59,898 nt of DNA, taken from Candidatus Jordarchaeia archaeon. GTDB lineage: Archaea > Asgardarchaeota > Jordiarchaeia > Jordiarchaeales > Jordiarchaeaceae. How positions within the stretch are numbered: position 1 is the stretch's first letter; each line of letters begins with the position of its first letter. The position numbers were made by a program, and so were the translations under genes. The notes under the pieces were generated by a model. It was not told the DNA's origin and made no database searches. It saw only the letters and a list, made by a program, of their open reading frames with translations. Positions 19,415-19,910 of this stretch are shown here, piece by piece. The stretch spans positions 1-59,898 of the forward strand of contig JAHQXB010000155.1 of the NCBI GenBank assembly GCA_029856435.1. The letters run 5' to 3'.

Positions 19415-19910
19415 TTACACCTTTTCGAGTTCGCTAAGGGCGGCCTTAAGCTCCTCGTCACTAGCTCCACCTTCAGACGCAGGCACAACTGGCTTCTCAG
19501 CAAGAAACTCGTCAAGAACACTCTTAAGTTGGGTCGATGCCTTCTTCATAACCAAGCGAATCATACCTATATTAACATCAGAATCAGTTATAACACAGAG
19601 AACACCTTTACCGCAACTTGCGGCAAAGATTTTCCCATTATCAAACTCTGAAGTTACAATGTTCAACTCGCCAATATCCAAGTTCTTACCCTGCTCTTCT
19701 GAAGCACAGTAAACTGCACTAGCAATAGCGCCTATCCCGTCATTCGACTGTCGGTGCCGCAACACTTCGACAAATGTCGACGGGATAGTATGAGAACTTT
19801 GATACGTGGGCTATGGTTAGTCCTGTTCTGTCCACGAGGATGACTTTTTTTATTCCGCTTTCTGCTTTAATGACATCGCTCAAAATTTTATCAAAGGCTT
19901 TTATATCCAT
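19415..19910 (-). CDS. Roadblock/LC7 (MglB-like) protein, 154 aa after removal of a 31-nt intron (exon 1 = 19774-19910, exon 2 = 19415-19742)
   Basis: ATG at 19910 gives MDIKAFDKILSDVIKAESGIKKVILVDRTGLTIAHVSKFSYYPVD, the roadblock N-terminal half. The ORF-track ORF 19415-19765 carries the C-terminal half (DGIGAIASAVYCASEEQG...NIGMIRLVMK) in another frame. Exon lengths 137+328=465 nt. Confidence 0.88.
19743..19773 (-). other. Putative bulge-helix-bulge (BHB) intron in a protein-coding gene, 31 nt
   Basis: Minus-strand RNA CUAUCCCGU-CGAC-AU^U-UGUCG-AA-GUGU-UGCG-GCAC-CGACA-GUCG-AA^UG-ACGGGAUAG: exon-exon stem, 4-bp central helix, opposed bulges and intron hairpin. Excision restores the reading frame. 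Confidence 0.8.

What the first reader, a model, noticed from the sequence alone, without database searches (positions are those of the whole stretch)
19733..19788. Coding exons mimic a tRNA anticodon arm, a possible splicing-controlled switch for the GTPase module
Seen: after splicing, the exons still form a 10-bp perfect hairpin CUAUCCCGUC-GACAUU-GACGGGAUAG. The codons for Y-P-V-D and D-G-I are therefore mutually complementary, much as the anticodon stem frames a 37/38 tRNA intron. The unspliced mRNA gives a truncated 56-aa half-domain. Inference: the intron could gate production of the GTPase's GAP/partner, conceptually like non-spliceosomal HAC1/XBP1 splicing in eukaryotes. Alternatively, a pre-existing mRNA hairpin acted as the landing site for intron gain.
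Basis: inference. Interest (0 to 1): 0.7.

Follow-up and report, generated by a model that had tools for sequence, protein, structure and literature searches.

The report
Exon hairpin framing an archaeal mRNA intron
The 10-bp hairpin formed by the two coding exons is the outer stem of a tRNA-type (bulge-helix-bulge) intron that splits a Roadblock/MglB-like gene of an Asgard archaeon; it travels with the intron rather than being a conserved switch, and the intron looks recently passed between species.

Summary
A perfect 10-nt inverted repeat (19732-19741 / 19779-19788) lies in the two exons of a minus-strand Roadblock/LC7 gene and brackets a 31-nt insert (19743-19773).

It is the outer helix of a relaxed bulge-helix-bulge (BHB) motif. 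Cutting between the 2nd and 3rd bulge nucleotides removes 31 nt. This restores a 154/155-aa protein colinear with 75 orthologous loci.

The pairing is linked to the intron:
- The peptide YPVD-I-DGI is a codon-level palindrome, so 4 pairs are forced.
- Only the two intron-bearing alleles (window; Ca. Jordarchaeum madagascariense) reach 10/10 pairs.
- Intronless orthologs have 2-9 pairs, against a chance mean of 7.2.

The intron looks laterally acquired:
- The nearest relatives (~94-95% DNA identity) lack it and differ at 10-11 consecutive synonymous codons around the junction.
- It is 30/31 identical to that of a species ~22% diverged. The rtcB and cbf5 introns of the same two genomes differ by 26-36%.
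- So intron plus exon arms probably moved as a cassette by recombination.

Nothing supports a GTPase-specific splicing switch. RNA data showed only intronless relatives.

The same genome has similar mini-introns in rtcB and cbf5 (found here). This scan noted others earlier in tyrS, selD, ahcY and fbp, and noted this same stretch as well.

Verdict: new member of a known kind.

The parts
19774..19910 (-). Exon 1 of the Roadblock/LC7 (MglB-like) gene, from ATG 19910 (an in-frame TTG lies at 19913). It ends ...GUC GAC AU.
   Evidence: ORF list. tblastn of the spliced product against 40 + 36 orthologous loci is colinear from residue 1.
19743..19773 (-). 31-nt BHB-type intron UUGUCGAAGUGUUGCGGCACCGACAGUCGAA. 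The boundaries can slide by one U (19742-19772) and give the same mRNA.
   Evidence: Its removal restores frame and the peptide YYPVDIDGIG, identical to orthologs. The same insert with 1 substitution occurs in L004/G118.
19415..19742 (-). Exon 2 (UGAC GGG AUA GGC ... stop at 19415-19417).
   Evidence: Pfam Robl_LC7 profile positions 39-91 of 91. Orthologs are colinear.
19779..19788 (-). 5' arm of the exon-exon outer helix, CUAUCCCGUC (codons Y-Y-P-V).
   Evidence: the repeat finder I4; fold.
19732..19741 (-). 3' arm of the exon-exon outer helix, GACGGGAUAG (codons D-G-I-G).
   Evidence: the repeat finder I4. In L004 the C becomes U, so a G-C pair becomes a G-U pair.
19776..19779 (-). Central 4-bp helix, exon side (CGAC). 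It pairs with the intron's GUCG at 19745-19748. Its first C competes with the 10th pair of the outer helix.
   Evidence: The BHB-constrained fold is -26.8 kcal/mol against an MFE of -28.2.
19773..19775 (-). 5' bulge AUU. The predicted cut is between its 2nd and 3rd nucleotide (19774|19773).
   Evidence: Geometry read from the sequence. The cut rule comes from PMC2738675.
19742..19744 (-). 3' bulge AAU, effectively 4 nt (AAUG) because G19741 competes. The predicted cut is 19743|19742. The UGA that ends the unspliced frame (19740-19742) starts here.
19749..19772 (-). Inner stem-loop of the intron: UGUCG / CGACA around a small GUG(U)...(G)CAC hairpin.
   Evidence: Folds. The A-to-G change in L004 turns a U-A pair into a U-G pair.
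19761..19793 (-). Upstream half (exon 1, codons 41-47) of the synonymous-site mosaic tract. It abuts the intron.
   Evidence: Every third-codon position from codon 42 differs from the nearest relatives L001-L003 but matches L004.
19730..19742 (-). Downstream half (exon 2, codons 47-51) of the mosaic tract.
   Evidence: Fisher p = 2e-7 for tract against the rest of the gene.

Best explanation
The hairpin is the outer helix of a relaxed bulge-helix-bulge (BHB) splicing motif. The organism is an Asgard archaeon of the Jordarchaeia/Freyarchaeia genus that includes Ca. Jordarchaeum madagascariense. Its Roadblock/LC7 (MglB-like) gene, next to an Arf/MglA-like GTPase gene, is interrupted by a 31-nt intron of the kind archaea remove from tRNAs.

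Proposed mechanism:
1. In the pre-mRNA, the two exon arms pair (9-10 bp).
2. Exon-1 CGAC pairs with intron GUCG to form the 4-bp central helix.
3. AUU and AAU(G) bulge out on opposite strands.
4. The intron closes on itself (UGUCG/CGACA).
5. The genome's two-subunit (alpha-beta)2-type splicing endonuclease cuts between the 2nd and 3rd bulge nucleotides.
6. RtcB joins the exons. The mRNA then encodes the full 154/155-aa protein.

Shown here: the motif, exact restoration of the frame and the peptide, and the presence of the enzyme genes. Inferred: that cleavage and ligation actually occur.

The arms are complementary for two reasons. The conserved peptide YPVD-I-DGI is a codon-level palindrome (V/D, P/G, Y/I). 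In intron-bearing alleles, all six free synonymous positions are also set to pair. The arms are therefore part of the intron's functional unit, not an independent mRNA signal.

The unit (intron plus about 30-45 nt of exon) most likely entered this lineage by homologous recombination from a Jordarchaeum madagascariense-like donor. I put this sub-claim at about 0.6.
For: BHB motif and splicing:
- The pre-mRNA segment folds at z = -3.07. The BHB-compatible fold is -26.8 kcal/mol against an MFE of -28.2.
- The cut rule (between the 2nd and 3rd bulge nucleotide, PMC2738675) removes exactly 31 nt. The product matches orthologs in one frame, without a gap, in 40 genome loci and 36 metagenome loci. 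The junction peptide YYPVDIDGIG is identical to that of the close relatives.
- Of 308 protein homologs, nearly all those listed are 152-168 aa, that is, unsplit.
- The window and L004 both carry the insert. Their 49 exon differences include only 3 non-synonymous ones, so both exons are under purifying selection.
- The two substitutions inside the structure keep pairing: G-C to G-U and U-A to U-G.

Enzymes:
- There are two EndA paralogs. One keeps the Y/H/K catalytic residues and one lacks the His.
- RtcB is present.

The helix is intron-linked:
- Both intron alleles have 10/10 pairs; 75 intronless orthologs have 2-9.
- The codon-usage simulation gives a mean of 7.16 pairs and P(10/10) = 0.0097.

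The same genome has comparable introns:
- rtcB: exon-helix synonymous covariation CCUUG/CAAGG against CCCUG/CAGGG across 6 species.
- cbf5: a canonical hBHBh' motif.

Transfer sub-claim:
- The window differs from L001 at 11/33 sites in codons 41-51 and at 16/435 sites elsewhere (p = 2e-7).
- With the tract masked, the window nests among intronless L001/L003/L002/L047, and L004 sits in a deep cluster of otherwise intronless lineages.
- The intron differs at 1/31 sites between G000 and G118, against 8/31 (rtcB) and 12/33 (cbf5) for the same genome pair.
- Non-pairing sites in the tract (codon 47 third base, codon 51 third base) also match L004.
- In an independent hot-spring DNA run (X3), an 85-nt contig identical to 19737-19821 (exon 1 joined to the intron) stands beside an intronless allele.
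Against: - There is no RNA evidence of splicing. The only RNA run with cover (X8) carries intronless relatives' alleles, which also stand in DNA runs.
- The motif is not strictly canonical. The 3' bulge is effectively 4 nt, and the unconstrained MFE fold opens the central helix.
- Only two intron-bearing sequences exist, so covariation for this intron rests on two wobble changes (chance about 0.25).
- For the transfer sub-claim, the divergence of window from L004 in tract plus intron (3/64) is not significantly below that of the rest of the gene (47/435; p = 0.18). Structural constraint could also keep it low.
- Node supports in the masked tree are moderate (79, 86, 56).
- These are MAG contigs, so an assembly mosaic cannot be formally excluded. 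The source run does show a single clean contig at depth 71.
Confidence: 0.85

Rival explanations
1. Regulatory switch. Splicing of this intron is conditional and gates production of the Roadblock partner of the neighbouring small GTPase, in the manner of HAC1/XBP1. The unspliced mRNA gives an inactive 56-aa fragment.
For: The unspliced mRNA does terminate after 56/57 aa, inside the Roadblock domain. The gene sits in a cluster of four Roadblock genes around an Arf-like GTPase. The ligase gene rtcB itself carries an intron, so the cell's splicing capacity could in principle be tuned.
Against: - The nearest relatives and about 75 orthologous loci lack the intron, and hundreds of homologous proteins are full length. 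They do not conserve the exon pairing either.
- The intron belongs to a genome-wide class that also hits housekeeping genes (and earlier scan notes).
- The cut sites lie in BHB bulges, not in the paired 7-nt loops of IRE1 substrates.
- No dedicated sensor is evident. A search for an IRE1-type RNase found nothing, but that search had no positive control.
- No expression data are available for this allele.
Confidence: 0.08
2. A pre-existing hairpin served as the landing site. A hairpin imposed by the palindromic peptide existed before the intron and made this site permissive. The intron arose or inserted there, and only a few synonymous changes were then needed.
For: - 4 of the 10 pairs are fixed by the protein sequence, and a fifth always pairs (C-G or U-G).
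- The chance expectation is 7.2 pairs.
- Intronless L005, L022, L023 and L033 have 9/10 pairs counting G-U, and L050 has 8/10.
- L005 needs only a CCU-to-CCC and a GGU-to-GGG change in the arms.
- The rtcB and cbf5 outer helices also use complementary codon pairs, L/Q and G/P.
Against: - Intronless orthologs show no excess pairing over chance.
- The closest intronless relatives have only 3-4 Watson-Crick pairs.
- A plain hairpin is not an EndA substrate.
- No source copy of the intron was found in the genome or in 400 Asgard genomes.
- This reading explains where the first gain happened, not the mosaic seen in the window.
Confidence: 0.4
3. Vertical inheritance with repeated loss. The intron dates to the ancestor of the genus and was lost several times. 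The synonymous block in the relatives reflects erasure of the now useless hairpin.
For: Lineage-specific loss is documented for the cbf5 intron (PMC2738675). BHB constraint could keep the intron and arms nearly unchanged in the window and L004.
Against: - It needs at least 4 losses on the masked tree.
- 10-11 consecutive synonymous changes against a background of about 4% are not drift (p = 2e-7). They include sites that do not pair.
- The unconstrained loop of the intron shows no change between genomes whose other introns differ by 26-36%.
Confidence: 0.2
4. The gene is broken (a 31-nt insertion pseudogene), or the insert is a sequencing or assembly artefact.
For: The reading frame is interrupted. 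Automated gene calls would give two fragments. The genome is a MAG with 5.7% estimated contamination.
Against: - The insert stands in a clean contig at depth 71 in the source run, and partly in an independent run.
- It also occurs in a second species.
- Both exons stay open, with 46 synonymous and 3 non-synonymous differences.
- The insert has exact BHB geometry and exact frame restoration.
Confidence: 0.03
5. Translational bypassing. The ribosome hops from GAC (Asp46) to the GAC just after the insert, as in phage T4 gene 60.
For: Identical GAC codons flank the insert, and the region forms a strong hairpin.
Against: - The hop would delete the conserved Ile-Asp, giving YYPVD--GIG, whereas all close orthologs read YYPVDIDGIG.
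- No stop codon follows the take-off codon.
- The BHB model explains the exact length.
Confidence: 0.02

Closest known systems
cbf5 pre-mRNA intron of Crenarchaeota (Desulfurococcales/Sulfolobales; Watanabe 2002, Yokobori 2009 = PMC2738675)
   Same: - A short BHB-type intron inside a protein-coding sequence.
- Mostly relaxed ('unconventional') BHB motifs.
- Cut between the 2nd and 3rd bulge nucleotide.
- Associated with a hetero-oligomeric EndA.
- Patchy presence among relatives.
   Different: - Different gene (Roadblock/LC7, a GTPase partner) and different phylum (Asgard).
- A much longer exon-exon helix (9-10 bp).
- Confined to 2 of 77 alleles, with signs of lateral exchange rather than lineage-wide inheritance.
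- No cDNA evidence yet.
Archaeal tRNA introns at 37/38 and at non-canonical positions (hBHBh' motif; Marck & Grosjean 2003). These are very abundant in Freyarchaeia/Atabeyarchaeia (PMC11291895).
   Same: The same motif logic applies. The outer helix made of exon sequence is the counterpart of the anticodon stem. The size class is the same (~30 nt) and the EndA/RtcB machinery is presumably the same.
   Different: - The host RNA is an mRNA.
- The exon helix has to be written in synonymous codon positions.
- There is no sequence similarity to any tRNA.
HAC1/XBP1 unconventional cytoplasmic splicing (IRE1 + tRNA ligase/RtcB)
   Same: It is non-spliceosomal and ligated by RtcB-type chemistry. The intron changes the reading frame, and the unspliced mRNA gives a different or truncated product.
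   Different: - IRE1 cuts in two 7-nt loops of twin stem-loops, whereas here the sites lie in BHB bulges for EndA.
- No IRE1-like RNase was found.
- There is no evidence of conditional splicing.
- The intron is not conserved even among close relatives.
Intron homing with co-conversion of flanking exons (group I/II introns; given as an analogy for the mosaic tract, from general knowledge)
   Same: An intron-plus allele replaces an intron-minus allele together with a short stretch of flanking exon. This leaves a block of foreign synonymous sites.
   Different: - No homing endonuclease or reverse transcriptase can be encoded in 31 nt.
- The tract coincides with the RNA structural unit.
- This points to ordinary homologous recombination followed by selection for a spliceable cassette.

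Membership tests
Archaeal BHB (splicing-endonuclease) intron | [quoted passage not shown] | tested here: inconclusive
   The 5' bulge AUU and the central helix CGAC/GUCG are present in the right orientation. The 3' bulge is AAU plus a competing G, so effectively 4 nt. The constrained fold is -26.8 kcal/mol against an MFE of -28.2. This is a relaxed form, as in most cbf5 introns.
Archaeal BHB (splicing-endonuclease) intron | Outer helix from the flanking exons and inner helix within the intron (h and h'). | tested here: met
   The exon-exon helix is 9-10 bp. The inner helix is UGUCG/CGACA.
Archaeal BHB (splicing-endonuclease) intron | Cutting between the 2nd and 3rd bulge nucleotides yields a functional mature RNA. 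| tested here: met
   It removes 31 nt and restores the frame. The product is colinear with 76 orthologous loci and carries the identical junction peptide.
Archaeal BHB (splicing-endonuclease) intron | The host encodes a broad-specificity EndA and the RtcB ligase. | tested here: met
   There are two tRNA_int_endo paralogs, one with the Y/H/K residues and one without the His. RtcB is present. The subunit type is inferred from sequence only.
Archaeal BHB (splicing-endonuclease) intron | The spliced RNA or the excised (circular) intron is observed. | not testable with these tools
   The RNA run laid (X8) holds only intronless relatives' alleles, and these also stand in DNA runs.
Archaeal BHB (splicing-endonuclease) intron | Structure is kept by compensatory change among homologs. 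| tested here: inconclusive
   Only two copies exist. Both substitutions in the structure are wobble-preserving. Clear covariation is seen for the rtcB intron of the same genus.
HAC1/XBP1-type regulated unconventional splicing | IRE1-type kinase/RNase and twin stem-loops with the cut sites in 7-nt loops. | tested here: not met
   The cut sites lie in BHB bulges. There is no Ribonuc_2-5A hit in the genome, though that search had no positive control.
HAC1/XBP1-type regulated unconventional splicing | Splicing is condition-dependent and the element is conserved with the regulated gene. | tested here: not met
   Conservation fails: the intron is absent from 75 orthologous loci, including the nearest relatives. 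Condition dependence could not be tested here.
Programmed translational bypass (T4 gene 60 type) | Matched take-off and landing codons, a stop after take-off, and a product consistent with homologs. | tested here: not met
   GAC...GAC exist, but the product would lack the conserved Ile-Asp, and no stop follows the take-off codon.

The most novel reading that the evidence does not exclude
The intron and its two exon arms form a self-sufficient 'BHB cassette' of about 60-75 nt that spreads between species by homologous recombination. Peptides that are codon-level palindromes (V/D, P/G, Y/I pairs) act as proto-splice sites where such introns can take hold in protein genes. This would be a concrete, currently active route of intron gain in coding sequences of Asgard archaea. 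The presence/absence polymorphism is still visible in natural populations.
Probability: 0.4. Interest if true: 0.75.

Novelty: new member of a known kind. Interest (0 to 1): 0.55.

Why it matters
In the papers I could search, BHB introns inside coding sequences are documented for only one gene (crenarchaeal cbf5). Here one sits in a eukaryote-like Roadblock/MglB gene of an Asgard archaeon.

This case also catches such an intron while it is young. Close relatives lack it, and the exon arms needed for splicing are inherited with it. The data give a testable picture of three things:
- how coding sequence and RNA structure are reconciled, through a codon-palindromic peptide plus synonymous tuning;
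- how tRNA-type introns may be gained and exchanged in protein genes;
- why gene callers split such genes.

It does not, on present evidence, reveal a new regulatory switch.

Tried and rejected
- RNA evidence. Of four runs laid, the true RNA run X8 and X11 showed a 'joint' across 19729-19792. The 31 letters between the two sides are the intronless L001-type tract, and the same form stands in DNA run X3. It is therefore a relative's DNA allele, not a spliced RNA. No verdict on splicing or its regulation.
- Source of the intron. blastn-short of the intron and the 71-nt motif against the own genome found no second copy. A pattern search with up to 3 mismatches in 400 Asgard genomes found only G000 and G118. 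A degenerate pattern in metagenome contigs gave 0 hits.
- tRNA mimicry. ARAGORN and Rfam found nothing in the window.
- Genome-wide BHB + ORF + coding-potential scan. It gave 46 hits against 48-66 for boundaries shifted by 1-4 nt, so there is no overall enrichment and the scan cannot count introns. Only the individually checked short hits are used. The C59 hit is a HisB-like HAD/IGPD gene boundary. The C68 (aconitase family), C108 (RIO) and C34 (esterase) hits remained unverified.
- Exact-product look-up of the 56-aa truncated ORF: not on record.
- IRE1-type RNase search: no hit, but the controls were all prokaryotes, so it is uninformative.
- A perfect 10-nt inverted repeat as such is not rarer than in shuffled sequence. 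The other two in the window (44844-44891 and about 45469-45513) are intergenic, terminator-like or AT-rich palindromes.

Full report
**What is there**

The stretch lies in a minus-strand gene at 19415-19913. In table-11 ORF lists the gene appears as two overlapping fragments: 57 aa (19740-19913) and 116 aa (19415-19765). The downstream fragment matches the second half of the Roadblock/LC7 domain, profile positions 39-91 of 91.

The neighbours are an Arf-family small GTPase (18786-19379) and three intact Roadblock genes.

The finding's start coordinate is one base short.

**The 31-nt insert and the BHB motif**

On the mRNA strand the region reads CUAUCCCGU-CGAC-AUU-UGUCG...CGACA-GUCG-AAU(G)-ACGGGAUAG. 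Its parts are:
- an exon-exon outer helix;
- a 4-bp central helix between exon 1 and the 3' end of the insert;
- a 3-nt bulge on the 5' strand;
- an inner intron stem;
- a bulge of 3 nt plus one competing G on the 3' strand.

Each bulge lies 3' of its central-helix strand, as in genuine bulge-helix-bulge substrates. The segment folds better than shuffles (z = -3.07). The BHB-constrained structure is within 1.4 kcal/mol of the MFE.

For the crenarchaeal cbf5 intron, cleavage falls between the second and third bulge residues (PMC2738675). Applying that rule removes 19743-19773, which is 31 nt. The result is a 154/155-aa protein.

That product aligns from end to end, in one frame and without a gap at the junction, with:
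- 40 orthologous loci from Asgard genomes;
- 36 orthologous loci from metagenomes.

Of 308 homologous proteins in the large protein collection, nearly all those listed are 152-168 aa. The junction peptide YYPVDIDGIG is identical to that of the close relatives.

**The organism and its enzymes**

The relatives are Jordarchaeia/Freyarchaeia MAGs. The window's genus holds six species genomes.

The genome encodes two EndA paralogs:
- one retains the Tyr/His/Lys catalytic residues;
- the other lacks the His.

[quoted passage not shown] It also encodes RtcB.

For Freyarchaeia the literature reports introns in 92-95% of tRNA genes, many at non-canonical positions (PMC11291895). ARAGORN recognised only 7 tRNA genes in this 3.5-Mb genome.

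**Why the exons are complementary**

The pairs V(GUC)/D(GAC), P(CCC)/G(GGG) and Y(UAU)/I(AUA) are reverse-complementary codons. The conserved peptide YPVD-I-DGI is therefore a palindrome at codon level.
- Four of the ten pairs are fixed by the protein.
- A fifth always pairs (C-G or U-G).
- The remaining five depend on synonymous choice, and a sixth synonymous site, the third base of Asp48, only chooses between G-C and G-U.

I sampled synonymous codons with this genome's usage. The mean was 7.16 pairs, with P(10/10) = 0.0097 and P(10 Watson-Crick) = 0.0004.

They do not. The 75 intronless loci have 2-9 pairs. The 29 I tallied with the identical peptide average about 7.0, which is the chance level. 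Only the two intron-bearing alleles reach 10/10: the window, and L004 = Ca. Jordarchaeum madagascariense = G118.

The helix therefore belongs to the intron's splicing unit. It is not an independently conserved mRNA element.

**A mosaic around the junction**

The window's nearest relatives (L001, L002, L003; ~94-95% DNA identity over 3.5 kb) are intronless. Within this gene they differ from the window at 27-34 of 468 positions. Ten or eleven of those differences are consecutive synonymous codons (41/42-51) on both sides of the junction. The contrast is 11/33 against 16/435, Fisher p = 2e-7.

In that tract the window matches L004, a species about 22% diverged over the locus. The match includes third positions that do not pair (codons 47 and 51). 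Immediately outside the tract (codons 37 and 52) the window is again like L001.

I built a tree with tract and intron masked.
- The window falls inside the shallow clade of intronless genomes (supports 79 and 86).
- L004 falls among deep lineages that are otherwise intronless.

The intron differs at 1 of 31 positions between G000 and G118. The rtcB and cbf5 introns of the same two genomes differ at 8/31 and 12/33. Taking 26% as the expected divergence, my own binomial arithmetic gives about 0.001 for seeing at most one difference. This figure is not a tool output.

The most economical reading is that the intron and its exon arms (about 61-76 nt) were exchanged by homologous recombination. Only the spliceable unit then survived against the local background. 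Vertical descent would need at least four losses, plus an unexplained burst of synonymous change.

Caveats:
- The divergence of window from L004 in tract plus intron is not significantly lower than in the rest of this conserved gene (p = 0.18).
- Node supports in the tree are moderate.
- All sequences are MAG contigs.

Two points speak against an assembly artefact:
- The source run shows one clean contig at depth 71.
- An independent hot-spring DNA run holds an 85-nt contig identical to 19737-19821 (exon 1 joined to the intron), beside an intronless allele.

**The switch hypothesis**

Nothing found here supports it.
- The intron is missing from the closest relatives.
- The pairing is not conserved.
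- The cut sites are BHB bulges, not IRE1-type loops.
- This genome has the same kind of mini-intron in unrelated housekeeping genes.

While checking the machinery I found two such introns.

rtcB carries a 30-nt in-frame insert with a stop codon, exactly inside LPD|AHQGYG.
- It is present in all six species of the genus and absent from the sister family.
- The exon helix covaries through synonymous Leu/Gln codons.
- The inner stem differs in sequence between species but can still pair by eye.

cbf5 carries a 31-nt canonical hBHBh' intron.
- It is present across the order.
[quoted passage not shown] That is the position described for Crenarchaeota.

Earlier notes of this scan list further cases in the same genome (tyrS, selD, ahcY, a radical-SAM gene, fbp, a CoA-transferase) and had already flagged this same stretch as a BHB intron. 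I did not re-test those.

Whether splicing here is complete or conditional cannot be told. The RNA run with cover contains only the intronless alleles of relatives.

**The landing-site alternative**

This is partly supported. The palindromic peptide guarantees a proto-helix. Some intronless relatives reach 8-9 pairs counting G-U: 9 in L005, L022, L023 and L033, and 8 in L050. So the site was predisposed.

This concerns the original gain, whose source I could not find. It does not explain the window's mosaic.

**Comparison with known systems and verdict**

The element works like the crenarchaeal cbf5 pre-mRNA intron and like non-canonical tRNA introns. It meets the membership features that can be tested in silico, in relaxed form for the 3' bulge. 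Direct RNA evidence is missing.

I found no paper reporting BHB introns in Asgard protein genes.

The finding is a correct observation with an over-reaching interpretation. The hairpin is ordinary BHB architecture, in an unusual host RNA and in a young, apparently mobile intron. I class it as a new member of a known kind, of moderate interest. The cassette-transfer and proto-splice-site reading is the part worth following.

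Noticed in passing
G000:C93:1547-1576 (minus strand; locus L046): The RNA ligase gene rtcB carries a 30-nt in-frame insert with a TGA, exactly inside the conserved LPD|AHQGYGFPIGG motif. It has BHB-like geometry: CCUUG CCCG AC|A CAUG...CAUG CGGG AA|G. It is present in all six species of the genus and absent from four genomes of the sister family. The exon helix covaries by synonymous codons (CCUUG/CAAGG against CCCUG/CAGGG). So the ligase mRNA would itself need ligation.
   Followed up: partly
G000:C73:22783-22813 (minus strand; loci L083, L103): cbf5 carries a 31-nt canonical hBHBh' intron (UGGGA CACU AGA ... 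AGUG AAA UCCCA). It splits the catalytic Asp codon between its 1st and 2nd letters, the position described for the crenarchaeal cbf5 intron. It is present in the 6 species of the genus and in 3 genomes of the sister family, with diverged inner stems. No paper found links cbf5, intron and Asgard.
   Followed up: partly
G000:C68:10550-10582; G000:C108:12501-12529; G000:C34:16141-16162: Further short BHB-like candidates lie in an aconitase-family gene (33 nt), a RIO kinase gene (29 nt; exon 2 starts at RIO1 profile position 68) and an esterase-like gene (22 nt). Pfam on the single exons did not settle them.
   Followed up: partly
whole genome G000: ARAGORN recognises only 7 tRNA genes (4 with introns) in a 3.5-Mb genome that is 98% complete. 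This fits the heavily interrupted tRNA genes reported for Freyarchaeia.
   Followed up: no
window 19415-19913 and loci L001-L082: This 155-aa Roadblock protein, with its acidic C-terminal tail, is unusually conserved. Identity is 65-99% across Jord-, Odin-, Baldr-, Borr-, Thor-, Hermod-, Hod-, Heimdall- and Sif-archaeal MAGs, and 308 homologs score at E <= 1e-30.
   Followed up: no
window 19729-19821, run X3: One hot-spring DNA run holds both an intronless allele (depth 5.2) and an 85-nt contig identical to the intron-bearing allele (depth 4.2). This suggests presence/absence polymorphism within one community.
   Followed up: partly
window 44844-44891 and about 45469-45513: The only other perfect 10-nt-or-longer inverted repeats of the window. 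One is a GC-rich hairpin followed by a T-run (terminator-like). The other is an AT-rich intergenic palindrome.
   Followed up: partly
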